Below are positions 17,326 through 30,236 of a stretch of 64,000 nucleotides of DNA, piece by piece. Source of the stretch: Acidobacteriota bacterium (GTDB taxonomy: Bacteria > Acidobacteriota > Terriglobia > Terriglobales > Acidobacteriaceae); the NCBI GenBank assembly GCA_021800255.1, contig JAJYZC010000003.1, positions 44,475 through 108,474 of the forward strand. Reading direction: 5' to 3'. The translations under genes and the position numbers were made by a program. Below the pieces are notes generated by a model, which was not told the DNA's origin, did not search any database, and saw only the letters and a program-made list of their open reading frames with translations. Numbering within the stretch: the stretch's first letter is position 1; each line of letters starts with the position of its first letter.

Positions 17326-18672
17326 TCAGCAGCGCACAATCTTGGGCGACTCGATGCCCATGGTTGCGTTGCGCGTATCCACGACGAGCTGCGAGCGGGC
17401 GACGATGGCGCGGTAGTCGTAGCTGGAGTGGTCGGTGACGATGACCACGGCGTCGTACTGGCCGAGGTTGTCGAGCGGCGTGCTGGTCATGTTCAGGTCG
17501 TAGTGGCGGCCGCGGCCGACGGTGGGAAAGTAAGGATCGTTGTAAGCGACGACCGCACCCTTGGCGCGCAGCAGCTCGATGATGGTGAGCGAGGGCGACT
17601 CGCGCAGGTCGTCCACATCGCGTTTGTAGGCCAGGCCCAGGACCAGCACCTTCGATCCCTTTAGGGCTTTGCCTTGCTGGTTGAGAGCGGCGGCAATCTG
17701 GTCGAGCACGAAATAGGGCATGGCGGTGTTGATTTCGCCGGCCAGCTCGATGAAGCGGGTGCGAAAGTCGAACTCGCGCGCCTTCCAGGAGAGATAGAAG
17801 GGATCGATGGGGATGCAATGGCCGCCCAGGCCGGGGCCTGGATAGAAAGCCTGGAAGCCGAAGGGCTTGGTTTTGGCCGCCGCGATGACTTCATGAATGT
17901 CGATGCCCATCCTCATGCAAAGCTGCTTGAGCTCGTTGACGAGGGCGATGTTGACCGAGCGGTAGATGTTTTCGAGCAGCTTGGTCATCTCGGCCACGGC
18001 GGGGCTGCTCACGCGAACCACGTGGCGGAAGATGGCGCCGTACATGGCGGCGGCCAGCCCGGCAGCCGCTTCCCCACAGCCGCCCACCACTTTGGGTATG
18101 TCGCGGCGGTCGACGACATCGTTGCCGGGATCTTCGCGTTCGGGTGAGAAGGCCAGGTGTAAGCCGGTTTCGCCGGCCCCGCGCGCGATCTTCAAGCCGT
18201 GAGGATTGCCGTCTTCCAGCAGCGGCGCAACGACCTCTTCGGTGGTACCGGGATAGGTGGTGCTTTCGAGCACGATCAACTGGCCCTCGTGAAGATGGGG
18301 CGCAATGGATGCGGCGGTTCCCGTCACGTAGCTCAGGTCGGGTTCGCGGTGCTCGTCGAGCGGCGTGGGCACGCAGATAATGACCGCATCCATGGCGGCG
18401 ATTTCGGAGTAGTCCGATGTGGCGCGGAAGCCCGCCTTTTGCGCCTCCTGAACGGCTTCAGGAGGGATGCGCACAATGTAGGATGCGCCCGCGTTGAGCG
18501 TCTTCACCTTGTCCGGCGCAATGTCAAAGCCCGTGACGCGGAACCGCTCGCCGCTGAACAACAGAGCCAGCGGAAGTCCCACATAGCCCATGCCGACGAT
18601 TCCGATGCGGGCCTCGCGGTTTTCCAACTTGCGTTTCAGCTCTTCCAGCCTGCCGGTCATCGTGGTTGCCAT
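17326..18672 (-). CDS. Nucleotide-sugar dehydrogenase (UDP-GlcNAc/GalNAc 6-dehydrogenase, WbpA/TviB-like)
   Basis: GMGYVGLP, ICVPTP, LESTTYPGTT, FSPERED, KLLENIYR, GPGLGGHCIP, GLAYKRD. Confidence 0.9.
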   Translation of the reverse strand: MATTMTGRLEELKRKLENREARIGIVGMGYVGLPLALLFSGERFRVTGFDIAPDKVKTLNAGASYIVRIPPEAVQEAQKAGFRATSDYSEIAAMDAVIICVPTPLDEHREPDLSYVTGTAASIAPHLHEGQLIVLESTTYPGTTEEVVAPLLEDGNPHGLKIARGAGETGLHLAFSPEREDPGNDVVDRRDIPKVVGGCGEAAAGLAAAMYGAIFRHVVRVSSPAVAEMTKLLENIYRSVNIALVNELKQLCMRMGIDIHEVIAAAKTKPFGFQAFYPGPGLGGHCIPIDPFYLSWKAREFDFRTRFIELAGEINTAMPYFVLDQIAAALNQQGKALKGSKVLVLGLAYKRDVDDLRESPSLTIIELLRAKGAVVAYNDPYFPTVGRGRHYDLNMTSTPLDNLGQYDAVVIVTDHSSYDYRAIVARSQLVVDTRNATMGIESPKIVRC

Positions 18673-18771
18673 ACTGTTGATTGTAAAGCTGCATGGCGAG
18701 ACGGGCAGAATAGTATTCTAAGCCGGTGCGGAGAGATCGCTGGCGCGCGCACCAGTTCTGGGGGAGGAACC

Positions 18772-19719
18772 TTGGCGAAATACCTGGTTACCGGCGTGGC
18801 CGGTTTTATCGGACGCTCGATCGCCGCGGCGCTGGTGGAGCGCGGCGAAGATGTGCGCGGCATCGACAGCTTGATTACCGGCAAGCGCGCCAATCTGATC
18901 GGGCTGGAGGCGATGGAATTCATTGAAGGCGACCTGGCCGATCCCTTGGTCTGCGTGCGGGCCTGCGCCGGCGTGGAGATCGTCTTCCACGAGGCCGCGC
19001 TGGCTTCGGTTCCGCGTTCCGTGGCCGATCCCCTGGCCACCCACGTAAACTGCGTGAACGCCACGCTCAATTTGCTGGTGGCGGCCCGGGCTGCCGGGGT
19101 GCGGCGCATGGTTTACGCGGGATCGTCGTCGGCCTACGGAGACACACCCACGCTGCCCAAGCACGAGCGGATGGCGCCCAACCCCATCAGCCCCTACGCT
19201 GCGGCCAAACTGGCCGGCGAATACTACATGCGCTCCTTTGCGCGCGTTTACGATGTGGAAACGGTGACCTTGCGCTACTTCAACGTCTTCGGTCCTTACC
19301 AGGACCCCAGCTCACAGTACTCCGGCGTGCTGGCCGTCTTCTGCCGCAAGATGCTGGCCGGCGAACAGCCGATCATCCACGGCGACGGCGAGCAGAGCCG
19401 TGATTTTACTTACATCGATAACGTTGTGCAGGCTAACCTGCTGGCTGCGGCGGCGCCGGCTGAAAAGGTATCAGGCCAGGCGATAAACCTGGCGATGGGC
19501 GAGCGATTTACCTTGAACCAGACCTTCGAGATTTTGCGGGAACTCACTGGTTATAAGGGTGAGCCGGCGTACGCTCCTCCCCGCGCCGGCGATATTCGCC
19601 ACTCTCTGGCCGACATTCGGCTGGCCGGTGAGCTGCTCGGCTACCGGCCAGCTGTGGGTTTCCGCGAGGGGCTGCGCAGGACCGTGGAGTGGTACCGGGC
19701 GGCAGGGTTGGCGTCTTAG
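18772..19719 (+). CDS. NAD-dependent nucleotide-sugar epimerase (WbpP/TviC-like SDR)
   Basis: TTG start after GGGGAGG; LVTGVAGFIG, SSSAYG, SPYAAAK, RYFNVFGP, GDGEQSRDFTY. Confidence 0.9.
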   Translation: MAKYLVTGVAGFIGRSIAAALVERGEDVRGIDSLITGKRANLIGLEAMEFIEGDLADPLVCVRACAGVEIVFHEAALASVPRSVADPLATHVNCVNATLNLLVAARAAGVRRMVYAGSSSAYGDTPTLPKHERMAPNPISPYAAAKLAGEYYMRSFARVYDVETVTLRYFNVFGPYQDPSSQYSGVLAVFCRKMLAGEQPIIHGDGEQSRDFTYIDNVVQANLLAAAAPAEKVSGQAINLAMGERFTLNQTFEILRELTGYKGEPAYAPPRAGDIRHSLADIRLAGELLGYRPAVGFREGLRRTVEWYRAAGLAS

Positions 19720-20016
19720 GGCTGTGAACAGCCCCCTGGAACGATCCCAGAATATGCGTGTGATTTTGAGGCTTATGAGAAGTGGCATTTTCTTAAGGGA
19801 ATGCCGCTTGGCTGTGTGCTTTTGGTACAGCAATTCTGGAGCCGTTGTACCGTCGGCTGCGAAACTCCGGGATTTTTGTCTCATTCTGATGTGATGCACA
19901 ACACATACGGCCCTCCCCGAATCGACGAAAATTGCGCAAACCCCTTTTCAGGCGATTTTTGCTTCCGCTAGCCGGGAATTGCCTCGTGCGAGGGCTCTTG
20001 GAACCGAGGTGTTCCC

Positions 20017-22551
20017 GTGCAAGACGCTCCCAATGTTCCGCAGGATTCTTCGCCCGCAGCCGGGCTGCGGCCCACGGCGAATGTGCGGCGGCAGGACGCC
20101 TCGGTTTCCTTGCGCGAGTTATGGCGGGTTCTGATGCGCCGCTGGCGCTTAGTTGCGGGCATTGAGGGCGGCTTGTTGCTGGCGTGCCTGCTGTATTGCC
20201 TGATTGCTCCTAACCAGTACGACGCCACCGCCAGCGTGGAACTGCGCACCGCGCCGGCCTCGCCGTTGAGCCTAAATGCGGCCGAGCCGCTGCTTTCGGC
20301 TTCGATTCTTTCCTCTTCCATCGAGATGGAGACGCTGGCAGGCGTTTTGCGCAGCGACCGGCTGGCCTGGACGGTGATTACCGGGCTGAAGCTCTACCAG
20401 GCGCCGGGCTTCCGGGGCAGCTTTGCCCGCCGTTTCCCCGGGTTTCGGCCCCAGACACCCTCACCGCGCGCTGAAGCCTGGCTGCTGAAGAGGTTTGCGT
20501 GGCGATTGCACGTGGAGATCCTGCCCCACACGCTGCTGGCGAGGATTCGCTTTCGCTCCGGGGACGCGGCGTTGTCGGCGGCCGTGGTGAACGCGCTGAT
20601 CCGCGCCTACAACGAGCAGGACCGTGAGTCGCAGGTCGAGGCCACCGAGCAGGCCTCGGCGTGGCTGGAGGAGCAACTGAGGGCCTTGAAGGCGCGCGAA
20701 GAGCAGGATGATCGCCGTCTGACGGAATTCGAGGACAGGCACGGCATCCTGAGCACTCCGGAGACGCTGGTCAACGGCCAGCCCAGTGAGGCTGAGCAAA
20801 GCCCTTTGGAGATGGAGATCGACGAGTTGGGCCGTCAGTTGGTGGCCGCCACGACGGAGCGCATTTTGTGCGAGGCAGAGTACCGCGCCGCCGCCGGGGG
20901 CGATCCGGAGATGGTGATCGCTGCCGACCCGCGCCTGCAGGCCCAGAGCAGCAGCTTTCCGACCTCACTGCTCCAGCAGCTTCGCGCCCAGCGCAGCAGC
21001 TTGGAGCAGGAACAGGCGCAACTGAGCGCCGAGCACGGACCGAATTTCCCTCGCGTGGTGGAGATTGACCGTGAGCTCACAGACCTGAGCCGGCAAAAGA
21101 AGGCCGAGGACGCCAGGCTTGTAGAGCGGTTCCGCGTGAACTGGCAGACGGCGGTTGCACGCGAACAGCTTGTGCGCAAGAGCCTGGAAGAAGCCACCCG
21201 CGAAGGCATGAAGCTGAACCAAGCGGCAACCGAATACACGGCCATGCGCCAGGAAGCCGGCTCCAGCCACGAGCTTTATGTGCGAGTGCTGGAGCGGGTG
21301 GAGGAAGCAGGATTGTCGGCCGGCATCCACGCTTCGAATATCTCGGTGGTGGACTACGCCCGCCAGCCCGTAAAGCCCGCAGCTCCCAATCTGCCGCTTT
21401 ACATGGCCATCACCTTTTTCGCCGGACTTTGGCTGGCGATGGGAGGCGCGCTCATGATGGAATCGATTCATCCCTCCAAAATCGCTGTGGCGGCGGCACT
21501 GCTCGCGGTGCTGGCGGCTGGCTCGCTGGCTCACGGCCAGGCGCCGACGCCCAGCACCTCGGGGCTGCCCACCGGGGTGGCCAGCTTTCCGCTGTCGCAT
21601 GAAACCAAAAATTTGCCCAACGCCAAGAAAGCGCCGCTGATATGGGGGAACCCGGCGGGCGGAGCGCAGACCGGCGCGCCGCCGTTTACGGTGCCGCAAT
21701 CCGGCTTACCGATGCCGGCGCCGATCAGCCCCGGAGACTTCCTCGACGTGAGCGAGTATCACACGCCGGAGTTTCATTCACTGGTGCGGGTCTCCGAAGA
21801 AGGGACCGTCACGCTGCCTATGATCGGCGAGATCAAGGTGGGCGGAATGGGCGAGCTGGCAGCCGCGCATGCCATTGAATCGGCGCTGGTGGCCAAGGGC
21901 ATGCTGCTCCATCCGCTGGTAACGGTGCTGGTGACCGCTTACGCCGGTCAGGATGTAAGCGTGCTCGGCGAGGTTGCCCGTCCGGGCGTCTATCCTTACA
22001 CCTATCATCACCGGCTGCTGGACCTGATCGCGGCGGCCTCCGGCCTCACGCCCGGCGCCGGCCGCCTGGTGAACATTTTTCACGCCAGCGATCCCAAGAC
22101 GCCACATGCGGTGGTGCTGGACCCCAGCGGAACCGACCCCAACGGAGATCACAACCCGGAATTACTCCCCGGCGACACCGTGCAGGTGACCCGCGCGGGG
22201 CTGGTGTACGTGGTGGGCGAAGTGATCCGGCCAGGCGGATTCGCGGTCGATCCGGTACAGAAGCTGACGGTGGTCCAGGCGCTGGCGCTGGCCTGGGGAC
22301 CGTCGCAAAACGCAGCCCTCACGAAGGCCGTGCTCATCCGCGAGCAGAAGGGCGGGCGCACCATCACCAGGCTCAACCTGAAACGATTGCTCCGCGGCCA
22401 GGATCCCGATGAACTGGTTCATGACCGCGACATTATCTACGTACCCGAATCGGTAGCCAAGAACCTGGTGAACGAGACCATGGAGTCGGCCATTCAATCC
22501 ACCATTGGCGTCTCCATCTACTCCGCGTTGGTGTATTCGCAGAGGTATTGA
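20017..22551 (+). CDS. Fusion of polysaccharide co-polymerase (Wzz/GumC/Wzc N-terminal part) and OPX/Wza polysaccharide export protein
   Basis: aa 30-485: SLRELWRVL, TM1, coiled coil, NISVVDYARQP..PAAP, TM2. aa ~570-844: ISPGD.L.V...TPE...VRVSEEGTVTLPMIG Poly_export domain and two SLBB repeats. One continuous frame. Confidence 0.85.
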   Translation: MQDAPNVPQDSSPAAGLRPTANVRRQDASVSLRELWRVLMRRWRLVAGIEGGLLLACLLYCLIAPNQYDATASVELRTAPASPLSLNAAEPLLSASILSSSIEMETLAGVLRSDRLAWTVITGLKLYQAPGFRGSFARRFPGFRPQTPSPRAEAWLLKRFAWRLHVEILPHTLLARIRFRSGDAALSAAVVNALIRAYNEQDRESQVEATEQASAWLEEQLRALKAREEQDDRRLTEFEDRHGILSTPETLVNGQPSEAEQSPLEMEIDELGRQLVAATTERILCEAEYRAAAGGDPEMVIAADPRLQAQSSSFPTSLLQQLRAQRSSLEQEQAQLSAEHGPNFPRVVEIDRELTDLSRQKKAEDARLVERFRVNWQTAVAREQLVRKSLEEATREGMKLNQAATEYTAMRQEAGSSHELYVRVLERVEEAGLSAGIHASNISVVDYARQPVKPAAPNLPLYMAITFFAGLWLAMGGALMMESIHPSKIAVAAALLAVLAAGSLAHGQAPTPSTSGLPTGVASFPLSHETKNLPNAKKAPLIWGNPAGGAQTGAPPFTVPQSGLPMPAPISPGDFLDVSEYHTPEFHSLVRVSEEGTVTLPMIGEIKVGGMGELAAAHAIESALVAKGMLLHPLVTVLVTAYAGQDVSVLGEVARPGVYPYTYHHRLLDLIAAASGLTPGAGRLVNIFHASDPKTPHAVVLDPSGTDPNGDHNPELLPGDTVQVTRAGLVYVVGEVIRPGGFAVDPVQKLTVVQALALAWGPSQNAALTKAVLIREQKGGRTITRLNLKRLLRGQDPDELVHDRDIIYVPESVAKNLVNETMESAIQSTIGVSIYSALVYSQRY

Positions 22552-22554
22552 GCG

Positions 22555-23775
22555 ATGAGAAGGGTTGCGTGGCGGCTGCTGGTGCTCTTCGCCTTCACCA
22601 TTCCCTGGGAGTATTCCCTGAATTTGGGCGCTCCGCTGGGCAATGTGGCGCGCATCGCAGGATTGCTGCTGCTGCTGGCCGCTGTTCCCGCCGTCCTGCA
22701 GGCCGGACGGATGCGTCTCCCGGGTGCGCTTGGGTGGGTGGTGCTGGTCTTCTATCTCTTCTTTTGCTGCACGTATTTCTGGACCATCGATCCGGCCGCA
22801 ACCCTGGAAAAGATGCGCGGCTATTTTCAGGAGATGATGATCGTCTGGCTGGTGTGGGAGTTTGCCGAGAGCTCCGGCGACTTGCGCACCCTGCTGCGCG
22901 CCTACGTGGCTGGTTCCTGGGTGCTGGCCGCGCTTACCGTCGCCAACTTCAGTTCCGCTGCGGCGATCGCTGCCAGCCAGATCCGCTTTGCCGCCTACGG
23001 GCAGGACCCTAACGATGTGGCGCGTTTTCTCGATCTTGGATTTCCGCTGGCGGCCCTGCTGGTAAACAGCGAGCGGCGCTGGCCCGGCCGCCTGCTGGCG
23101 CTGGGCTATCTGCCGCTGGGCCTATTTTCCGTTTTGCTCACCGCCTCGCGCAGCGGGTTTCTGGCCGCCGTGATGGCGTTCACGGGGTGCAGCTTTCTGC
23201 TGGCGCGCGGGCATGCCAAGAGCGCGCTGGCGTGGATTCTTGCTTTGCCCGCCATAGCGGCGGCTCTTTGGTTCATGGTTCCGAGTGATACTCTGGCGCG
23301 CCTGGCGACCATCCCTCAGCAGCTTGCGGGCGGCGACCTGAATCAACGGCTGAACATCTGGTCGGCGGGCTGGCGCGCGTTTGTGCAAGCGCCGCTGTTG
23401 GGCACAGGCGCGGGCACCTTTGTCAGCGCGGCGGGAACGTCGTCGCTCGATACGGCTCACAACACGGCGCTCGCCATTCTCGTTGGCGGCGGGCTTTGCG
23501 CTTTATTCCTGGCGGCAGCCATCGTGGCGCTGGTGGCGCGCGCAGCCCTCCAAACCCAAGGGGCCTTGCGGCTGGCTTTGGTGACCGCCCTGCTGGTCTG
23601 GATCGTGACATCGCTGGTCCTGACCGTGGAGGAGAGCCGCACCACTTGGCTGTTGTTTGCCTTGATTGCCCTTGCCGGACGGGTTGCCGCAGAGGATCCC
23701 GAGGCCCTTGCCGAATGCTTTTCCAGTTCAGTCCCGCTGCATGAGCTGGCCGCGGCAGCAACCGCGGTTGTGTAG
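22555..23775 (+). CDS. O-antigen ligase/Wzy polymerase-like membrane protein
   Basis: Multiple TM helices; DPND, LTASRSG, R..IW..G...F...PLLGTGAG, AHN motifs. Confidence 0.85.
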   Translation: MRRVAWRLLVLFAFTIPWEYSLNLGAPLGNVARIAGLLLLLAAVPAVLQAGRMRLPGALGWVVLVFYLFFCCTYFWTIDPAATLEKMRGYFQEMMIVWLVWEFAESSGDLRTLLRAYVAGSWVLAALTVANFSSAAAIAASQIRFAAYGQDPNDVARFLDLGFPLAALLVNSERRWPGRLLALGYLPLGLFSVLLTASRSGFLAAVMAFTGCSFLLARGHAKSALAWILALPAIAAALWFMVPSDTLARLATIPQQLAGGDLNQRLNIWSAGWRAFVQAPLLGTGAGTFVSAAGTSSLDTAHNTALAILVGGGLCALFLAAAIVALVARAALQTQGALRLALVTALLVWIVTSLVLTVEESRTTWLLFALIALAGRVAAEDPEALAECFSSSVPLHELAAAATAVV

Positions 23776-23808
23776 ACCGGCGGATCGGTTTTCTCCACTC
23801 GGACTGCT

Positions 23809-25170
23809 ATGTTTTCCGCTCCTCAAATCGCGCCGCCTTGCAAAGATTCCAGCGTGAACCGCAGCATCTTTCGCGCCGCCACATCGGTGGGCGCGGCGGG
23901 GATTGTGGTAAAAATCGCGGCGGTGTTCAAGGAGATTGCTGTAGCCGGCGTTTATGGCCGCTCTGACGCCATGGATGCCTTTCTGGCCGCGGCGCTCATT
24001 CCCGGCCTGCTCGTCAACCTCATCTCCGAGTCGATGAACCAGGCGCTTGTGCCCACGCTGATCCGGGTGCGGGAGCACGAAGGCCGCGAGCGCGCGCAGC
24101 AACTGCTCTCCATCTCCATGCTGTGGGTGTGCCTGCTGCTCGTGGCCGCTTCGGGCGCAATGGCCCTCGCCGCGCATGGCGTTTTCCCGCTGATCGCTTC
24201 GCATTTTTCTCCAGCAAAAATGGCGCTCTCGATCCGGCTCTTTTATGCGCTGTTGCCGGTGGTCCTGATGACGGGAATCGCCAGCAACTGCACGGCGGTT
24301 TTGAACACGCTGGACCGTTTTGCGCTGCCCGCGCTGGCGCCGATGGCGATTTCCGTCTCCATCCTTCTCGGAGTGCTGGCCTGGAGCGGCCGGCTGGGAA
24401 TCTGGGCCATGGTCTACTCCACGCTGGCCGGCGCGGCGATTCACGCGGGTCTCATGGCCTGGATGATGAACGCGCACGGCTACCGCTTCCGTCTGCGCTG
24501 GTATGGAATGACGGAGGCTACGCGCGAGGTGGGGCGCCAGTACGGGCCGGTGCTGGTGAGCGGAGTGGTGGCCTCGGGCGGCTTGGTCGTGGATCAGGCA
24601 ATGGCCGCCATGCTGCCCGCCGGAAGCGTCTCGGCGCTGGTCTACGCCACGCGCTTTGTCAGCGTAGTGCTGACGCTGCTGGCCGGCGCGGTCGCCACGG
24701 CCGTCACGCCCTACTTCTCGCGCCTGATCGCCTACCGGGATTGGAGCGGCTGCCGCCACACGTTGCGCACCTGGGTTCGGATCACGGCGCTGGTTTCAGC
24801 GCCCATCGCGGCGCTGCTGATGGCGGGCGCGCACTTCCTTGTCCGCATCACCCTGCAGCACGGAGCATTTGGCCGGCGCGACACGGCCGTGGTCGCCCAA
24901 GTGCTCATCATGTTCGCCATTCAGATTCCGTTCTTTGCCGTCAGCCGGGTCTTTTACCGCTTTATCGTCGCCATGCGGCGCACCGAACTGATTCTTTACT
25001 GCGGCATTCTCAATCTTGGACTGGATGTGGCGCTGAACCTGCTGCTGATGCACTGGTTCGGCGTGGCTGGAATCGCATTGGCCACTTCACTGTGGACGGT
25101 GAGCACGTTTTTCTACCTTTGGTATTGGTCGCGGAGGCTTTTGACGGAAGCAAGTTTAAGAGCGGTTTAG
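23809..25170 (+). CDS. MurJ/MviN-family lipid-linked oligosaccharide flippase
   Basis: KEIAVA..YG.S.AMDAF..A..IP, VD...A..L..GSVSAL.YA.R, LQHGAF. Confidence 0.82.
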   Translation: MFSAPQIAPPCKDSSVNRSIFRAATSVGAAGIVVKIAAVFKEIAVAGVYGRSDAMDAFLAAALIPGLLVNLISESMNQALVPTLIRVREHEGRERAQQLLSISMLWVCLLLVAASGAMALAAHGVFPLIASHFSPAKMALSIRLFYALLPVVLMTGIASNCTAVLNTLDRFALPALAPMAISVSILLGVLAWSGRLGIWAMVYSTLAGAAIHAGLMAWMMNAHGYRFRLRWYGMTEATREVGRQYGPVLVSGVVASGGLVVDQAMAAMLPAGSVSALVYATRFVSVVLTLLAGAVATAVTPYFSRLIAYRDWSGCRHTLRTWVRITALVSAPIAALLMAGAHFLVRITLQHGAFGRRDTAVVAQVLIMFAIQIPFFAVSRVFYRFIVAMRRTELILYCGILNLGLDVALNLLLMHWFGVAGIALATSLWTVSTFFYLWYWSRRLLTEASLRAV

Positions 25171-25240
25171 ACCGGAGCCGCGAGAAGCGCGGAGAGAGAA
25201 CGTTCTGGATGACCACTGCGAAAAACGCACCGGAGGGGAT

Positions 25241-26026
25241 ATGACGCTGCCGAAGCCTGCACAGTATCTGCTTCGTTGCGACGATCTCTGCCCCACGGCC
25301 GGCGCGGAACGGTGGCGGCGTTTGCAGGCATGGATCGAGGAGTTCGGAATCCAACCCATTCTCGCCGTGGTTCCCGACAACCGTGATCCGGATTTGCAGT
25401 ATGAGCCGCCTGACCCCGAGTTTTGGGTGCGCATGAGGACGATGGAGGCCGCCGGCGCGGCCATCGCATTGCACGGCTACCGGCATCTGTGCACGAGCGC
25501 GGGCCGCAGTCTGATGCCCCTGAACCGCCGCTCCGAGTTTGCCGGCGTTCCCATCAATATGCAGCGCGAGTGGATCCGCGCAGGTCTGCGCATTCTCCGC
25601 GATCGCGGCCTCAACCCGCGCCTGTGGGTCGCGCCGCGCCATGGCTTCGACCGCGGAACGCTCGCCGTGCTCCGGGCCGAGGGAATCAGCCTGCTCTCGG
25701 ACGGCTTGGCGCGCGTCCCTTTTCTTCGCGGCGGCCTCACCTGGATTCCGCAGCAGCTTTGGGCTCCTATGAAAAAGTCGAAGGGGCTGTGGACCATTTG
25801 CGTTCATCCCCACACGGTTCGCGAATCGGAGTTGGAGGAGCTGCGCGGCTTTCTCAGCCGCCATTCGATGCAGTTCACCTCAGTGGAGCGCGTGCTGGAC
25901 GAGTTCGAGCCTGCCCGGCTCAGTTTGTGCGAATCTGCCTACTCCCGTCTCGCGCTGTGCCGGGTGAAAGTCTCCGGCGCGCGCAAGAGCCTCCGGCGCG
26001 AGCTACGAAGAGCCGCTTCCGGTTAG
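25241..26026 (+). CDS. DUF2334/polysaccharide deacetylase-like (NodB fold) protein
   Basis: YLLRCDDLCP, IALHGYRH, WVAPRHGFD. Confidence 0.78.
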   Translation: MTLPKPAQYLLRCDDLCPTAGAERWRRLQAWIEEFGIQPILAVVPDNRDPDLQYEPPDPEFWVRMRTMEAAGAAIALHGYRHLCTSAGRSLMPLNRRSEFAGVPINMQREWIRAGLRILRDRGLNPRLWVAPRHGFDRGTLAVLRAEGISLLSDGLARVPFLRGGLTWIPQQLWAPMKKSKGLWTICVHPHTVRESELEELRGFLSRHSMQFTSVERVLDEFEPARLSLCESAYSRLALCRVKVSGARKSLRRELRRAASG

Positions 26027-27166
26027 AGCGGCTGCGCCGGCGGACGCAATGGAGAGTGATTTTCCCGCGAGCAACTCCGCGTAAAGCCGTTCCCAGCGGT
26101 CAAGAACGGCATCGAGGCTGAAGCGCTCAATGGCCTGGCGTCGCGCCTGCTCGCCCATGATGCGGCGCTGGTCCGGCGACCTTTGCATGAGGGTGGTCAT
26201 TGCCTGAGCCAGTGCGGCAGCATCGCCGGGCGCGGCGAGCCAGCCAGTCAGCCCATGGGCAATCACCTCCCGCGAGCCAGGAACATCCGTGGCGATGGCC
26301 GGTAAGGCGCAGGCCGCAGCTTCGATCAGCCCCATCGGCAGCCCCTCCCACCGCGATGAGAGCACAAAGGCATCGGCGGCTTGAAGCCAGCGCGTCAGGC
26401 CGGGAACGAAACCTAAAAAGCGCACCCGGCGCTCCAGGCCGAGCCGCGCGGAAAGAGCAAGCAGCTCGCTGCGAAGCGGACCGTCGCCCGCGATCAGCAG
26501 CCGCGCCGGCTCAGGGGTTGCGGACATGGCGCGGAGGAGGGTGGGATAGTCCTTCACCGCGTCCAGCCGTCCGGCGGCCAGCCACAAAAATTTGTCTACA
26601 AGGTTTAGTTCTTGGCGCGCCGCTGCTCGAATGGACGGATCCGTCCGCCAGGCTTCGATGTCCGCTCCGTTGGGGAGAACGGAGAGTTTGCTTCGGCTCA
26701 CCAATCCGGCGGATAGATGCGCGCGGGCGACAGATTGGCTCACGGCGGTGACATGATCTGGCAGCCAGCCGCTCAGCCGGTAGCCCAGCCGCCGTCCGAG
26801 CGGTCCGGTCCACGAGCTGTGCAGCGTATCAATCACCACGGGCGACGGCGCGCACAGCCGCGACCAACGGGCCAGCCATGCGGCGTGGGGCAGGTGCGCA
26901 TGAACCACCTCCGGCCTCTCGCGCCGCAGCCAACGATGGAAGCGAACCCACCCCCGCGGGTCGGCCCATCCCTTGCGCATCTCCAGGCTGAGGAATGCCA
27001 CGCCTGCATTGGCCAGCTCGTGAGCCGCCTGTCCGCCGGAACCGGTGAGGGCAACCACGCTCACACGCCAGCCGCGCCCGCGCAGCCCTTTGGCCAGCAG
27101 CATGACCTGCCGTTCCGCTCCGCCGATGCGGTCAAGGCCGGGAATGACCAGGGCAGCGTGACTCAT
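26003..27166 (-). CDS. GT4 (GT-B) glycosyltransferase
   Basis: IGGAERQV, HAHL, AGRLDAVKDY, SSRWEGLPMGLIEA, C-terminal RFSLDAVLDRWERLY. Confidence 0.92.
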   Translation of the reverse strand: MSHAALVIPGLDRIGGAERQVMLLAKGLRGRGWRVSVVALTGSGGQAAHELANAGVAFLSLEMRKGWADPRGWVRFHRWLRRERPEVVHAHLPHAAWLARWSRLCAPSPVVIDTLHSSWTGPLGRRLGYRLSGWLPDHVTAVSQSVARAHLSAGLVSRSKLSVLPNGADIEAWRTDPSIRAAARQELNLVDKFLWLAAGRLDAVKDYPTLLRAMSATPEPARLLIAGDGPLRSELLALSARLGLERRVRFLGFVPGLTRWLQAADAFVLSSRWEGLPMGLIEAAACALPAIATDVPGSREVIAHGLTGWLAAPGDAAALAQAMTTLMQRSPDQRRIMGEQARRQAIERFSLDAVLDRWERLYAELLAGKSLSIASAGAAALTGSGSS

Positions 27167-27420
27167 GCGCGCCTTTGCGCATAAGCGGCGTCGATCAACC
27201 TCTCATAGGCCTCAATGGCGTGCTCAAAGGCGAACTCTTCGCCGGCTTGATGCTCTAAATGTTGCAGGTTCCTGGGGCTGTGGTAACGCAGCGGGATACG
27301 AACGAGGAAGTCGCAGACAACAGCGCCGAACTTGGAGAGGATTGTGGAAAACTCCTGAACTAGAAGTAAGAAGGCGAGCAGCAAGGCTGCAAATACGGAA
27401 TTTACGAGGCGAGCAAGCAT
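27163..27420 (-). CDS. Small hypothetical membrane protein (85 aa) ending in a GT4-type C-terminal helix
   Basis: ATG at 27420 after GGTGGA; hydrophobic N-terminus; stop overlaps the next GT start (ATGA). Confidence 0.5.
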   Translation of the reverse strand: MLARLVNSVFAALLLAFLLLVQEFSTILSKFGAVVCDFLVRIPLRYHSPRNLQHLEHQAGEEFAFEHAIEAYERLIDAAYAQRRA

Positions 27421-27769
27421 GAAAATTCCACCGAACTTAGAGGATTCACAGCCTGCTCCGGAACCGGCCAGGTGGCCGCAGTTAAGCAACGCATTTTCAA
27501 CGGGGGAGTGGATGCAGTCTGACTGTGAATCCGGATGATTTAAGGCCCGGTTGGTGGTCCCTGTCCCAATATGAGCCACTTTTCCTCTACGGGTGAGCGG
27601 GAAAAGTACCCAAACTGGGCCTTTCGTTGATTTAAAAGAAACTGTACAGAAAGGAAACAACGTTGCGCTTTAAATGTCAAGGGGTTAAATCAGGCGAGGA
27701 AAAATAGGCTGAATATTACTTTTGGGCCTATGAAAATGGATCCGGACCGGGGCTCAGTTTTCTGCCTGG

Positions 27770-28882
27770 CTAACCCTCAACTTTCGCTCTTTCCAGGTTG
27801 GAAGGCGGCAATGCAACTGACTGCGGGATTGCCGGCTCGCGGCGGCTGGAAAACTGGTGGTGAAACCTCTGGCCTGGACGCAGAGCGACTAATGCCGCGT
27901 GGAGGGAGGCGGAGAGCGCATCGGCGCTAACCTCGTGCGCGAGCCAGGCTCCGGGCCGGCCGCGGAGCAGGTCCACGACGCCACCCGATGCTGGCAGGGC
28001 TACGATGGGCAGACCGGCGGCTGCGGCTTCGAGCAGGGCGTTGGGCATTCCCTCGTGGCGCGAGGAGAGCACAAACAAGGTGGCCCCTGGGAAGAAGACG
28101 TAGGGGCAATCGACGCGGCCCGCGAAGCGCACGGCCGCTTCGAGCCCCAGCGAGCGGCACTGGGCTTTGAGCGCCGCCTCCTCAGGTCCTGCGCCGGCAA
28201 TGAACAGATCAGCCTGCGGGAAATTCTGCCGCACGCCGGCAAGCGCACGCAGCAAGAGGTCAAACCCCTTTTCCGGCGCCAGCCTTCCCACGGCCAGCAG
28301 ATGCGGGCCAGGACCGGCCCACTGCTCCGAATCAGATTGAACCGCGCGGATTCCTTCCAGGTCCACCGGATTGGGCAGAACGGAGATCAGATCGGAGCCA
28401 ATGTCCAACTGGCTGGCCAAATCCTCGGCCATGGCGCGCGACTGGCAGATGATGCGGTCCGCACGGCGGTAGAGCAGCCTGTAGAGCAGGCCGGTGAAAC
28501 TAGGCAGGCCGCCAAAGGCCAGAGCAGCCGAAACGGTCGCGTTCTGGCGCACCAAAACCCGAGTTCCGCGCGGGAAGAAGGGGCGCAGTAGAAGCACGAG
28601 AAAATTCACGTGCGCTATACCGGAGAGGATCACGCCGGGCCGCAGGCGGCGCACCAGGCGCAGCAGTTTGAAGGCTGCGGCGCGCACTCGGGTAGCGCCC
28701 AGGGGATGAATGACTACCCAGGGGGGCAGTTGGGCGGCGCCAGCATCGGGCTGGGTAATCAGACCGAGGTGTAGTTCATACTTTTCGCGCGACAATCCTC
28801 GCGCAAGCAGCGTGGTCACCTGCTCTGCGCCGCCGCCTCCAAGATGCGGGATCAGCAGCAGGATTCTCAACGGTTGGGCCAT
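27770..28882 (-). CDS. GT4 glycosyltransferase, apparently lacking its terminal helix
   Basis: RILLLIPHLGGGGAEQV, VGRLAPEKGFD, SSRHEGMPNALLEA; tail SSRREPAIP... is unlike GT4. Confidence 0.88.
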   Translation of the reverse strand: MAQPLRILLLIPHLGGGGAEQVTTLLARGLSREKYELHLGLITQPDAGAAQLPPWVVIHPLGATRVRAAAFKLLRLVRRLRPGVILSGIAHVNFLVLLLRPFFPRGTRVLVRQNATVSAALAFGGLPSFTGLLYRLLYRRADRIICQSRAMAEDLASQLDIGSDLISVLPNPVDLEGIRAVQSDSEQWAGPGPHLLAVGRLAPEKGFDLLLRALAGVRQNFPQADLFIAGAGPEEAALKAQCRSLGLEAAVRFAGRVDCPYVFFPGATLFVLSSRHEGMPNALLEAAAAGLPIVALPASGGVVDLLRGRPGAWLAHEVSADALSASLHAALVALRPGQRFHHQFSSRREPAIPQSVALPPSNLERAKVEG

Positions 28883-29027
28883 GCGTTTCCTGGTAGTGGA
28901 CGATTTTGGGACATTCGAGTGTACTTGTGCTGTGTTCTGGGTCACACATTTCAGGCTGTCCAAAAATGATACATTTTTTGTAATCTCGCTCGAAATTTGA
29001 CGAATTCCGGCTCATACGGGGATTACC

Positions 29028-30236
29028 TTGGCAGCTTCACCAGCCCTCGAACGCGACCCGCCTTTGCCGGCTCTTGGAGCCAAGCGGCCGCCTATTGTGG
29101 TGGGCGTCACCCATCCGCAGACCTGCCTGGTGCTGGGCGCGCGCTTACGGGCGCTGCGGGAGGCGGGCTTTCGCGTCACGGTGGTTTCCGGTCCCGGCGA
29201 GTTGCTGGAGCGCACGGCCGCGCGCGCAGGCGTGGAGTGGGTTGCGATTCCCATGCGGCGGGGGATTGCGCCGCTTGCGGATATGCTCTCCTTGCTGCTC
29301 CTGTGGCGGCTGCTGGGCAGGCTGAAGCCGGAGGTAGTGGAATTCAGCACACCCAAGGCGGGACTTTTAGGTACCCTGGCGGCCAGATTGCGCGGCGTTC
29401 GGCGGCGCGTCTACCTGCTGCGCGGGCTGAAGCTGGAAACCACCAGCGGAAGCAAGCGCCGCATCCTGCTGGCGGCCGAGCGGCTGGCCGCCCGGTGCGC
29501 GCACATGGTCTTATGTAACAGCGCAAGCCTGCGCGACCGGGCGCTGGAGCTGCGTCTGGCGCCGCCAGCCAAGTTGCGCCTGCTGGGCTACGGGAGCAGC
29601 AACGGCGTGGACGTGGAGCGGTTTTCGCCGGGACCGTGCGACCTGCGCGAGCGGCTGGGGTTTCGACGCGAAGCTCCAGTGGTGGGCTTCGTGGGCCGGT
29701 TGAGCCGCGACAAAGGGGCGCCGGAGCTGATCGATGCCTTCGACGCCATCCTGGCGGTGGAGCCGCAAGCGCGACTCTTGCTGGTTGGCTGGTTCGATGC
29801 CGGGGAGGATGCGCTGGACGGCCGGCTGCGCGCACGCATTGAGAGGCATCCGGGCATTCATTGCGCCGGCTTGGTTGAGGATACGGCGCCTTATTACCGC
29901 GCCATGGACGTGCTGGTTTTGCCCACTTGGCGGGAGGGGTTTCCGAATGTTGTGCTGGAGGCGGCAGCCACCGGGATTCCCGCCATTACCACACTGTCGA
30001 CGGGCGCGCGCGACGCCGTGGTACACGAGGTGACGGGTCTGCTCATCCCGCCCGGCCGCCCGCAAGCTATCGCCGAAGCCGTGTTGAAGCTGCTCAGCGA
30101 CCCTGAACGGCGGAGGCGCATGGGGCGGGCTGCGCGCGCCTGGGTCATTGAGCACTACACCGAGCAACGGGTTTTGGGGCTCACCACCGCATATTACCGG
30201 AGTTTGGCGGATCCGGCAGCCGCCCAGACAAACTGA
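29028..30236 (+). CDS. GT4 glycosyltransferase (PglA/CapM-like)
   Basis: STPKAGLLG, SSNGVD, GFVGRLSRDKG, PTWREGFPNVVLEA. Confidence 0.9.
   Translation: MAASPALERDPPLPALGAKRPPIVVGVTHPQTCLVLGARLRALREAGFRVTVVSGPGELLERTAARAGVEWVAIPMRRGIAPLADMLSLLLLWRLLGRLKPEVVEFSTPKAGLLGTLAARLRGVRRRVYLLRGLKLETTSGSKRRILLAAERLAARCAHMVLCNSASLRDRALELRLAPPAKLRLLGYGSSNGVDVERFSPGPCDLRERLGFRREAPVVGFVGRLSRDKGAPELIDAFDAILAVEPQARLLLVGWFDAGEDALDGRLRARIERHPGIHCAGLVEDTAPYYRAMDVLVLPTWREGFPNVVLEAAATGIPAITTLSTGARDAVVHEVTGLLIPPGRPQAIAEAVLKLLSDPERRRRMGRAARAWVIEHYTEQRVLGLTTAYYRSLADPAAAQTN

What the first reader, a model, noticed from the sequence alone, without database searches (positions are those of the whole stretch)
27163..27862. 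GT4 gene separated from its own C-terminal helix by an AT-rich insert of about 0.6 kb; the helix now ends a new small membrane ORF
Seen: the GT4 at 28882-27770 loses GT-like sequence after RPGQRFHHQ (27854). About 610 nt downstream, the 85-aa ORF ends in EEFAFEHAIEAYERLIDAAY, matching the terminal helix of the neighbouring GT4 (ERFSLDAVLDRWERLY). Its stop overlaps the next GT start (ATGA), as an operonic GT would. The insert is AT-rich and has a minus-strand TTGACA at 27675-27680. GCCGGCT occurs at both 27241 and 27831, but exact excision (590 nt) would not restore the frame. Known: the GT-B terminal helix packs back on the N-terminal domain. Inference: an insertion split the gene. The GT is either crippled or complemented in trans by a membrane-anchored helix, and the insert may give the downstream GT its own promoter.
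Basis: partly seen in the sequence, partly recalled or inferred. Interest (0 to 1): 0.6.

Follow-up and report, generated by a model that had tools for sequence, protein, structure and literature searches.

The report
Glycosyltransferase split from its last helix
In this soil and mine-drainage acidobacterium (Terracidiphilus) a sugar-transferring enzyme gene has been cut just before its last helix, and that helix now ends a small membrane protein encoded 0.35 kb downstream; about a quarter of the genus species sampled keep this layout under selection, so it is probably a working two-piece enzyme.

Summary
The GT4 gene (28882-27770, minus strand) matches its orthologs only to residue ~346 (..RFHHQF). 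Intact orthologs go straight on into F-I-E-E-F-R-x-x-R-A-I-x-A-Y-E-x-L-I-D. That helix is the tail of the 85-aa ORF (27420-27163), whose stop overlaps the next GT4's start (ATGA).

- **Distribution:** this is not a private lesion. The order truncated GT4, ~0.35-0.48 kb non-coding spacer, ~83-aa ORF, next GT4 occurs in about 48 of 200 Terracidiphilus genomes searched. The small protein forms about 115 clusters at 50% identity in metagenomes.
- **Selection:** all parts are under purifying selection. dN/dS is 0.17 for the GT4 body, 0.12 for the helix and 0.32 for the hydrophobic N-terminal half.
- **Translation signals:** the start codon column, a GGAGG-like site and the ATGA/GTGA overlap are conserved.
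- **Predicted docking:** a complex model places the helix on the GT4 N-terminal domain (ipSAE 0.80, best control 0.00). This may reflect likeness to solved intact GT-B folds.
- **Natural variants:** in one species the two parts lie ~400 kb apart. In others the small ORF is fused to the downstream GT, or the intact GT4 is fused to it.

Best reading: a stable gene fission gave a two-piece GT4 whose closing helix sits on a membrane anchor. The spacer carries a conserved promoter-like block; its promoter function is not shown. This is a new variant of split GT-B enzymes.

The parts
27845..28882 (-). GT4 body (residues 1-346): both Rossmann domains of a GT-B family-4 glycosyltransferase, ending ..RPGQRFHHQF. 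It lacks the terminal crossover helix.
   Evidence: Pfam PF13439 and PF00534 match, the latter cut at profile position 155/172. Orthologs at 50-72% identity align to residues ~344-348. E277-x7-E285, R200 and K205 are invariant in 29 truncated copies. dN/dS is 0.17.
27770..27844 (-). Read-through tail of the GT4 ORF into the inserted DNA (24 codons plus stop). It is not GT-like and not conserved.
   Evidence: In relatives the ORF stops 0-36 codons after the break, with unrelated sequence. Nucleotide identity here is 0.34-0.38 in distant pairs, at or below the 4-fold-site level.
27244..27844 (-). DNA that is extra relative to intact orthologs, about 600 nt. It comprises the GT4 read-through tail, the non-coding spacer, and the N-terminal 59 codons of the small ORF.
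   Evidence: Boundaries come from the alignment to intact orthologs. GC is 0.44-0.55. It is single copy in this genome. Its homolog is single copy and found only at this locus in relatives.
27421..27769 (-). Non-coding spacer of 349 nt between the GT4 stop and the small-ORF start. Relatives have 412-477 nt; the window lacks about 130 nt of their leader.
   Evidence: Alignments A1 and A3. No conserved ORF on either strand. No 3-periodicity of substitutions. No Rfam family and no tRNA.
27641..27690 (-). Conserved promoter-like block: an AT-rich stretch, TTGACA (27680-27675), 15 nt, TGTTTCCTT (27659-27651), then GTACAG (27647-27642).
   Evidence: TTGACA is present in 28 of 29 split loci, and the boxes are invariant or nearly invariant. 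The block is also present in G012 and G152. No canonical sigma-70 -10 hexamer follows. The pattern has only one other match in the genome.
27427..27432 (-). Shine-Dalgarno-like GGTGGA, 6 nt upstream of the small-ORF ATG.
   Evidence: GGAGG, GGAGA or GGGGGA lies 5-9 nt upstream of the aligned ATG/GTG/TTG start in all 29 loci.
27163..27420 (-). Small ORF, 85 aa plus stop: an N-terminal hydrophobic helix, a linker, then the GT4 terminal helix.
   Evidence: It is found full length in about 48 of 200 genus genomes and in about 115 clusters of 80-130 aa proteins. dN/dS is 0.29. P0039, 64% identical over all 85 residues, shows that the window's own subtype is conserved. It matches no Pfam or NCBIfam family.
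27298..27414 (-). Predicted membrane helix of the small protein (residues ~3-41).
   Evidence: The Kyte-Doolittle 19-residue maximum is 2.27 here and 2.25-3.07 across all 29. AlphaFold2 predicts one helix over residues 2-41, pLDDT 84-94 over the first 30. There are more K+R on the C-terminal flank. dN/dS is 0.32.
27172..27243 (-). Relocated GT4 terminal helix (residues 60-83, GEEFAFEHAIEAYERLIDAAYAQR).
   Evidence: hhalign aligns it to columns 345-365 of intact orthologs. dN/dS is 0.12. It is predicted to contact GT4 residues 5-35, 83-110, 142-176 and 284-288.
26003..27166 (-). Downstream GT4 (gt2, 387 aa, complete with its own terminal helix). Its ATG overlaps the small ORF's TGA.
   Evidence: Pfam matches run full length. 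The ATGA/GTGA overlap holds in all 29 loci. In other species it is fused in frame to the small ORF (P0086 cluster, G152) or to the intact GT4 (G206, G190).

Best explanation
An old insertion of about 0.5-0.6 kb into the 3' end of a GT4 glycosyltransferase gene of an exopolysaccharide locus split it into two genes, and both have been kept.

- **Gene 1** encodes the catalytic body: both Rossmann domains with the E-x7-E motif. It lacks the C-terminal helix that in GT-B enzymes crosses back and packs on the N-terminal domain.
- **Gene 2** is an ~85-aa protein with an N-terminal membrane helix, a basic and variable linker, and that missing helix at its C-terminus.

The proposed mechanism is that the helix of the small protein docks in trans into its ancestral groove on the N-terminal domain. 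This completes the fold and tethers the enzyme to the cytoplasmic face of the inner membrane, next to its lipid-linked acceptor and to the following GT4. That GT4 is translationally coupled to the small ORF, and in some species is fused to it. The inserted DNA also carries a conserved promoter-like block and leader, so the small ORF and the downstream GT probably form a transcription unit of their own.

Shown: the split, its exact complementarity, its wide conservation, purifying selection on every coding part, and the conserved translation signals.

Inferred: physical assembly, membrane topology, promoter activity and enzymatic activity.
For: - **Exact complementarity.** The GT4 matches orthologs up to residue ~346, and the small-ORF tail matches columns 345-365 of intact orthologs (hhalign 96.3%, E 1.9e-9). 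In the loci examined the helix occurs once per locus, either on the GT4 or on the small ORF.
- **Conservation.** The full-length small ORF is in about 48 of 200 genus genomes. Synteny GT4(truncated)-spacer-small ORF-gt2 holds in 29 of 29 fetched loci and in most of 51 named Terracidiphilus/Acidobacteriaceae MAG loci. There are about 115 clusters at 50% identity, nearly all 70-135 aa.
- **Selection.** dN/dS is 0.17 for the GT4 body, 0.12 for the helix, 0.32 for the hydrophobic part and 0.53 for the linker. The GT4 read-through tail evolves neutrally. E-x7-E and other GT4 signature residues are invariant.
- **Translation signals.** ATG/GTG/TTG falls in one alignment column, with a GGAGG-like site 5-9 nt upstream and an (A/G)TGA overlap with gt2 in all 29 loci.
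- **Membrane helix.** It is predicted in all 29. The model shows helix 2-41, a disordered stretch at 42-48, and helix 49-84.
- **Complex model.** The median ipSAE of three runs is 0.80 and the best of 3 controls is 0.00. That mark was reached by 58 of 80 solved complexes and 2 of 110 mismatched pairs; these counts hold only roughly, because own alignments were used. The runs share at least 62% of contacts, and partner pLDDT is at least 58. The interface is small-protein residues 62-83 against GT4 residues 5-35, 83-110, 142-176 and 284-288, which is the canonical GT-B position of the terminal helix. These are halves of a split gene, so the pass may come from likeness to solved intact GT-B structures.
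- **Natural experiments.** In G012 the truncated GT4 lies at ~740 kb, while the promoter block, leader, small ORF and gt2 lie at ~1,139.6 kb of the same contig. The small ORF is fused in frame to gt2 in G152 and in the P0086 cluster, where 3 fused members come from JGI and Logan. The intact GT4 is fused to gt2 in G206 and G190. Together these tie the helix, the GT4 body and gt2 to each other.
- **Origin.** The 29 split copies form one clade (SH-aLRT 99). A single origin that also includes the window and G012 is not rejected (AU p = 0.44).
Against: - No experimental or expression data exist. No RNA run holds this DNA, so transcription, the start site and translation of the small ORF are unverified.
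- The complex score can arise from the model's memory of intact GT-B folds.
- The window's small ORF is divergent in its N-terminal half from the main clade (pN 0.53 against pS 0.68). It is, however, matched over its full length at 64% identity by P0039.
- The window and G012 fall outside the well-supported split clade, in an unresolved polytomy with three intact forms. Two events, or a re-fusion, cannot be excluded.
- The promoter-like block lacks a canonical -10 hexamer.
- The small ORF could owe part of its conservation to translational coupling of gt2, or to a role with gt2 rather than with the GT4 body.
Confidence: 0.68

Rival explanations
1. The truncated GT4 works, or has acquired a new role, without its terminal helix. 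The small membrane protein is kept for something else: as an anchor or adaptor for the downstream GT4 (gt2), or mainly as an upstream reading frame that keeps gt2 translated through the ATGA coupling.
For: - The small ORF always travels with gt2, not with the GT4 body. In G012 and in several MAG loci the small ORF and gt2 lie without an adjacent GT4.
- The small ORF is fused to gt2 in G152 and in the P0086 cluster.
- The ATGA/GTGA overlap is universal.
Against: - Coupling alone would keep the frame open but would not give dN/dS 0.12 over 26 codons, nor keep the same F-x-F-x-x-A-x-x-x-Y-E-x-L-I pattern as intact orthologs.
- gt2 has its own complete terminal helix.
- The complex model places the helix on the GT4 N-terminal domain (0.80 against a best control of 0.00).
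- The truncated GT4 has never been seen with a helix of its own.
Confidence: 0.17
2. The GT4 was crippled by the insertion. It persists as an inactive relic or non-catalytic scaffold, and the helix-bearing ORF is an evolutionary leftover.
For: - In GT-B enzymes the C-terminal helix normally packs on the N-terminal domain, and its loss would be expected to destabilise the fold (general structural knowledge of the family).
- The Pfam C-terminal domain match is cut short.
Against: - The ORF is intact in every split locus examined.
- dN/dS is 0.17.
- The catalytic E-x7-E and nucleotide-sugar-binding residues are invariant in 29 species.
- The arrangement persists across a large clade with saturated synonymous sites (dS ~1.2). 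A dead gene would have decayed over that distance.
Confidence: 0.07
3. The two pieces are rejoined in cis into one polypeptide or one mRNA. Under this reading the spacer is an intron or is bypassed by the ribosome.
For: The coding pieces are exactly complementary, and parts of the spacer are conserved above the neutral level.
Against: - No Rfam intron or any other RNA family matches.
- The leader folds no better than shuffled sequence (z = -0.43), and the consensus structure is weak (-3.7 kcal/mol).
- Spacer lengths vary from 349 to 477 nt and the frames differ.
- The small ORF has its own conserved start codon and ribosome-binding site.
- In G012 the pieces are ~400 kb apart.
- Gene callers in several sources report the 83-85 aa product.
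Confidence: 0.02
4. The layout is an assembly or binning artefact of this MAG.
For: The genome is a metagenome assembly of 102 contigs.
Against: - One contig of run X1 spans the whole stretch, contigs from two studies bridge the GT4/spacer/small-ORF junctions, and no alternative joint was seen.
- The same layout occurs in dozens of independent genomes, including long contigs over 1 Mb.
Confidence: 0.01

Closest known systems
Alg13/Alg14 (eukaryotes) and EpsF/EpsE-type bacterial and archaeal homologs: a naturally split GT-B N-acetylglucosaminyl/hexosyl transferase
   Same: A GT-B enzyme is made from two polypeptides, one of them membrane-anchored. Assembly depends on the short C-terminal helix that packs on the N-terminal domain (Gao et al. 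2008, as cited in PMC8993221). Repeated re-fusions are seen in that family (PMC8993221), and fused forms occur here too.
   Different: The Alg13/14 split lies between the two Rossmann domains, whereas here only the last ~25 residues are detached. The family differs: MurG-like GT28/GT1 there, GT4 here. The anchor differs too: there it is on the N-domain subunit, while here a new ~40-residue hydrophobic helix of unknown origin carries nothing but the closing helix. There is no sequence relationship.
Ordinary single-chain GT4 enzymes of polysaccharide loci (e.g. PglJ, PglH, WcaL, EpsE-GT4, TIGR03088 stp2)
   Same: The body has both GT4 Pfam domains and the E-x7-E motif. Its best NCBIfam hits are PglJ, TIGR03088 and EpsE, all far below their cut-offs. 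It sits in an exopolysaccharide cluster. The intact orthologs in the same genus are ordinary members.
   Different: The terminal helix is not part of the polypeptide. Profile matches stop at 155/172 (Pfam) and 333/374 (TIGR03088).
Gene fission by insertion with capture of a new promoter and start (general phenomenon of split genes in prokaryotes)
   Same: An intervening segment supplies a stop for the upstream piece, and a promoter-like block, a ribosome-binding site and a start for the downstream piece.
   Different: The downstream piece is only one helix, and it has gained a membrane anchor. The fission is kept in many species under selection, which is unusual for so asymmetric a split. No mobile-element hallmarks were found.

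Membership tests
GT4 glycosyltransferase (GT-B fold; Pfam PF13439/PF13579 plus PF00534/PF13692) | N-terminal Glyco_transf_4 domain | tested here: met
   PF13439 matches at E 1.9e-16 over residues 17-176, profile 2-169/170.
GT4 glycosyltransferase (GT-B fold; Pfam PF13439/PF13579 plus PF00534/PF13692) | C-terminal Glycos_transf_1 domain with the E-x7-E motif | tested here: met
   PF00534 matches at E 1.1e-27 over residues 185-330, but only profile positions 8-155 of 172. E277 and E285 are invariant or nearly invariant in the alignment of 29 truncated copies.
GT4 glycosyltransferase (GT-B fold; Pfam PF13439/PF13579 plus PF00534/PF13692) | C-terminal crossover helix on the same polypeptide, packing on the N-terminal domain | tested here: not met
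   The polypeptide ends in non-homologous read-through after residue 346. The helix is encoded by the separate 85-aa ORF.
Alg13/Alg14 - EpsF/EpsE type split GT-B | Split between the N-terminal and C-terminal Rossmann domains | tested here: not met
   Both domains are on one chain. The split lies after the C-terminal domain, before the last helix.
Alg13/Alg14 - EpsF/EpsE type split GT-B | One subunit carries a membrane anchor that recruits the other | tested here: inconclusive
   A hydrophobic helix is predicted in all 29 small ORFs. Membrane insertion and recruitment have not been measured.
Alg13/Alg14 - EpsF/EpsE type split GT-B | Assembly through the C-terminal helix docking on the N-terminal domain | tested here: inconclusive
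   The complex model scores ipSAE 0.80 against a best control of 0.00, with the interface on N-domain residues. This is a prediction only and may reflect memory of intact folds.
Alg13/Alg14 - EpsF/EpsE type split GT-B | Sequence membership in the MurG-like (GT28/GT1) lineage | tested here: not met
   Only GT4 families are hit.
Insertion sequence / MITE | Several copies per genome, terminal inverted repeats, a target-site duplication, or a transposase | tested here: not met
   The segment is single copy in this genome and single copy only at this locus in relatives. It holds no conserved ORF. The flanking 7-mer is at chance level.
Self-splicing intron or known cis-regulatory RNA (Rfam) | Match to a covariance model, or a stable conserved structure | tested here: not met
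   There are no Rfam hits at E <= 1 in the window or in six relatives. RNAalifold gives -3.7 kcal/mol with 19 pairs. The MFE z-score is -0.43.
Sigma-70 promoter | -35 TTGACA and -10 TATAAT-like hexamers 16-18 nt apart | tested here: inconclusive
   A perfect and conserved -35 is present. No acceptable -10 follows; instead there is an invariant TGTTTCCTT box. No transcript data are available.

The most novel reading that the evidence does not exclude
The fission made GT4 activity conditional on a separately expressed partner. Under this reading the catalytic body is inert until the membrane-anchored helix closes its fold. That helix would be made from its own promoter, behind a ~200-nt leader that is conserved above the neutral level, and together with the next glycosyltransferase. 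The small protein would then act as an assembly switch that builds a membrane-bound two-enzyme complex (GT4 body, helix-anchor, gt2) and sets the stoichiometry of two consecutive sugar additions. The anchor itself may have arisen de novo from the inserted DNA.
Probability: 0.25. Interest if true: 0.78.

Novelty: new variant of a known kind. Interest (0 to 1): 0.62.

Why it matters
Split GT-B glycosyltransferases are known (Alg13/Alg14, EpsE/EpsF), but there the cut lies between the two domains. I found no description of a natural, long-lived fission that detaches only the fold-closing terminal helix and grafts it onto a membrane anchor.

If the pieces assemble as proposed, three things follow:
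- The terminal helix of a GT4 can act as a portable docking element in trans. That is useful for engineering split or inducible glycosyltransferases.
- It gives a clean natural series in one genus: intact, long-linker, split, relocated, re-fused to the neighbour. Such a series is good material for studying how gene fission, promoter capture and a new membrane anchor arise and become fixed.
- It adds an unannotated small membrane protein family (about 115 clusters at 50% identity, no Pfam or NCBIfam model) to acidobacterial exopolysaccharide loci. Genome annotation currently reads the locus as a short GT4 plus a hypothetical protein.

Tried and rejected
- **Known RNA in the spacer:** Rfam and tRNA scans of the spacer in the window and six relatives found nothing.
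- **Structured leader RNA:** rejected for now. The RNAalifold consensus is weak and the MFE z-score is -0.43. One hairpin (A3 columns 104-127) shows compensatory changes, but these trace to a single clade.
- **Hidden coding gene in the spacer:** there is no ORF conserved across species on either strand and no 3-periodicity of substitutions.
- **Mobile element origin:** the segment is single copy in this genome and in relatives. The flanking GCCGGCT is at chance level.
- **Regulon-type promoter motif:** the TTGACA..TGTYTYMTT pattern has only one other match in the genome.
- **Canonical sigma-70 promoter:** none was found by the consensus scan.
- **Expression data:** no RNA holder is listed for this DNA, so nothing can be said about expression.
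- **Family assignment of the small ORF:** Pfam and NCBIfam give none. There are only scattered single-member hits with E > 0.008.
- **Literature:** full-text searches for a split GT with a detached C-terminal helix, and for Terracidiphilus exopolysaccharide glycosyltransferases, found no prior description.
- **Alternative start:** the 165-aa reading from TTG at 27660 was considered and rejected. Relatives share the start at the ATG 27420 column, with a ribosome-binding site, and the frame upstream of it is not conserved.
- **Unpublished genomes:** no claim in this report rests on G029, G034, G035, G036, G038 or G040. They appeared only as weak paralog hits.


Full report
**What is in the window**

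The minus strand between 26003 and 28882 carries three ORFs:
- a 370-aa GT4 at 28882-27770;
- an 85-aa ORF at 27420-27163;
- a 387-aa GT4, called gt2 here, at 27166-26003.

The 85-aa ORF's TGA overlaps the ATG of gt2 as ATGA. GC content drops from 0.64-0.70 to 0.44-0.55 between about 27200 and 27900. Pfam sees both GT4 domains in the first protein, but Glycos_transf_1 stops at profile position 155 of 172. In gt2 it runs to 171 of 172. NCBIfam TIGR03088 likewise stops at 333 of 374 in the window protein, and runs to 374 of 374 in an intact ortholog. The 85-aa ORF matches no Pfam or NCBIfam family.

Orthologs in 23 of 24 first-sampled genomes of the same genus align to the window GT4 at 50-72% identity, but only up to residues 344-348. 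Intact orthologs continue directly from ..RPGERFAHxF into (I/V)EEFR(L/M)xRAIxAYExLID and end 20-30 residues later. The window protein instead reads RFHHQF and then 24 unrelated codons. The missing helix is the tail of the 85-aa ORF (GEEFAFEHAIEAYERLIDAAY).

A profile of 29 such small ORFs aligns at its columns 58-78 to columns 345-365 of a profile of 27 intact orthologs (hhalign probability 96.3%, E 1.9e-9). The two window pieces therefore abut at the same column. Relative to intact genes about 600 nt are extra (27844-27244), and the two frames differ.

The GCCGGCT pair is there too, but this 7-mer occurs 40 times in the window (28 expected), so it says nothing about a target-site duplication.

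Contigs from two independent studies cover the junctions, one 21-kb contig spans everything, and no alternative joint appears.

**It is not a private lesion**

Record titles place the relatives in Terracidiphilus, family Acidobacteriaceae. An HMM of the small ORF finds a full-length, stand-alone copy in about 48 of 200 genus genomes searched. In roughly 50 further genomes it hits only the C-terminal ~20 residues of 370-420-aa frames, which are the intact orthologs.

In all 29 fetched loci the order is the same: GT4 truncated at ~344, a 412-477 nt spacer, the small ORF, then gt2. Most of 51 further named MAG loci show the same order. Against 1.84 billion representative proteins the profile finds 121 hits. 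About 115 of these are 70-135-aa proteins matched end to end. Gene callers of NCBI, ENA, JGI and Logan already report the 83-85-aa product, unnamed.

The window's own small ORF differs from the main clade in its N-terminal half. P0039, however, is 64% identical to it over all 85 residues without gaps. So this subtype is conserved as well.

**Selection and signals**

Pooled Nei-Gojobori estimates over 28 split loci, leaving the window out, are as follows:

| Part | dN/dS |
|---|---|
| GT4 body | 0.17 |
| Small ORF, whole | 0.29 |
| Small ORF, hydrophobic part | 0.32 |
| Small ORF, linker | 0.53 |
| Small ORF, helix | 0.12 |

Synonymous divergence is near saturation (dS ~1.2). The other two frames of the small ORF hold 75-88 stops over the 29 copies.

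The GT4 signature residues, including E277-x7-E285, R200 and K205, are invariant or nearly invariant in the truncated copies. The read-through tail after the break is not conserved, at identity 0.34-0.38.

All 29 small ORFs share three translation signals:
- they start with ATG, GTG or TTG in one alignment column;
- a GGAGG-like site lies 5-9 nt upstream;
- they end in (A/G)TGA overlapping gt2.

Every small ORF has a hydrophobic stretch with a Kyte-Doolittle 19-residue maximum of 2.25-3.07, and more basic residues on its C-terminal side. AlphaFold2 models helix 2-41, a disordered stretch at 42-48, and helix 49-84 (mean pLDDT 76).

**The spacer**

The spacers are homologous across species. They share an AT-rich stretch, TTGACA, a TGTTTCCTT box 15 nt later, and GTACAG. 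The block is also present in G012 and G152.

In distant pairs 4-fold-site identity is 0.41-0.49. The block and roughly the first 200 nt after it are 0.64-0.70 identical in those same pairs, which is above neutral.

I could not assign this region a known role:
- no Rfam family and no tRNA;
- no ORF conserved on either strand;
- no codon periodicity;
- a weak consensus structure;
- a folding energy like that of shuffles (z = -0.43);
- no canonical -10 hexamer;
- the block's pattern is not a common motif of the genome.

The segment is single copy in each genome and is found only at this locus. It is not a current mobile element, and its origin is open.

**Does the helix still serve the GT4?**

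A complex model of the GT4 body (residues 1-346) with small-protein residues 41-85 was run with alignments of the split-clade sequences. It gave ipSAE 0.78, 0.80 and 0.82 in three runs, against 0.00 for the best of three controls. That mark was reached by 58 of 80 solved complexes and 2 of 110 mismatched pairs in the tool's calibration. Those counts hold only roughly here, because my own alignments were used. The runs share at least 62% of contacts, and partner pLDDT is at least 58.

Residues 62-83 of the small protein lie on GT4 residues 5-35, 83-110, 142-176 and 284-288. That is where the terminal helix of a GT-B enzyme sits. These are halves of a split gene, so the pass may come from likeness to solved intact GT-B structures. 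It supports binding but does not show it.

**Natural experiments**

- **Relocation.** In G012, the closest relative of the window GT4 at 72% identity, the truncated GT4 lies at ~740 kb. The promoter-like block, leader, small ORF and gt2 lie at ~1,139.6 kb of the same contig. Several MAG loci likewise have the small ORF and gt2 without an adjacent GT4.
- **Small ORF fused to gt2.** In G152 and in the P0086 cluster the small ORF is fused in frame to gt2. The cluster has three fused members of 483-487 aa from JGI and Logan, and one unfused member.
- **Intact GT4 fused to gt2.** This occurs in G206 and G190.
- **Long linkers.** Some intact orthologs carry 10-40 extra residues before the helix (L021, L055, L056, L058, L064, L066).

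The fusions argue that the GT4, its terminal helix and gt2 work in physical proximity. The relocation argues against any rejoining in cis.

**History**

In a maximum-likelihood tree of the GT4 body, with the trait's own columns excluded, 29 split copies form one clade (SH-aLRT 99). The window and G012 sit just outside, in an unresolved polytomy with three intact forms. The label needs two changes, and starred branches force only one. An AU test does not reject a single clade of all split copies (p = 0.44). The spacers of the window and of the main clade are homologous. One old insertion, followed by occasional re-fusion or relocation, is therefore the simplest history, but this is not proven.

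**Comparison with what is known**

The nearest precedent is Alg13/Alg14 and the bacterial and archaeal EpsF/EpsE pairs. These are split GT-B enzymes with one membrane-anchored subunit. Their assembly needs the short C-terminal helix (Gao et al. 2008, as cited in PMC8993221), and they have re-fused repeatedly.

The present case works like that but is not a member:
- the family is GT4, not MurG-like;
- both Rossmann domains stay on one chain;
- only the last ~25 residues are detached;
- those residues ride on a new anchor.

Full-text searches found no description of such a split.

**Context**

Earlier notes of this scan describe 17326-30236 as an exopolysaccharide locus with a PCP-OPX fusion, a MurJ-type flippase, a deacetylase-like protein and three GT4s. 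My Pfam scan agrees for the GT4s and for the DUF2334 protein.

**Verdict**

Assembly, topology, promoter activity and enzyme activity remain inferred.

Noticed in passing
L127 (G206:C138, minus strand) and L057 (G190:C148): The intact GT4 ortholog is fused in frame to the downstream GT4 (gt2), giving one ORF of more than 600 aa. This is Rosetta-stone evidence that the two transferases act together.
   Followed up: partly
L126 (G152:C547) and protein cluster P0086/P0129/P0130: The small membrane ORF is fused in frame to gt2 (483-494 aa). A truncated GT4 and the TTGACA/TGTTT(C/T)CTT block still lie upstream.
   Followed up: partly
L003 (G012:C1 ~740 kb) and L017 (G012:C1 ~1,139.6 kb): The truncated GT4 is separated by ~400 kb from the unit formed by the promoter-like block, the leader, the small ORF and gt2. 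The 5' part of the insert is still attached to the GT4.
   Followed up: partly
window 27440-27690 (-); A3 columns ~10-215: The promoter-like block and the first ~200 nt of the leader are conserved above the 4-fold-site level (0.64-0.70 against 0.41-0.49). They have no known RNA family, stable fold or ORF. The window copy lacks about 130 nt of the relatives' leader.
   Followed up: partly
L021, L055, L056, L064 (408-aa forms); L058, L066: These intact orthologs carry 10-40 extra residues between RF..F and the terminal helix. Their helix resembles the split type (EFxFERAxEAYEALID). They may be intermediates or re-fusions.
   Followed up: no
L084 and L093: The GT4 end and the helix are ~1.2 kb apart instead of ~0.5 kb, so something further may be inserted there.
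   Followed up: no
window 27241-27352: Logan unitigs of three runs (X3, X5, X7) all break at 27241-27270 and at 27323-27352, inside the small ORF. This may reflect strain variation or a graph bubble. No differing letters were reported there.
   Followed up: no
G000:C85:13956-13986 (L131): This is the only other genome match to the TTGACA-N-TGTYTYMTT pattern. It was not examined.
   Followed up: no
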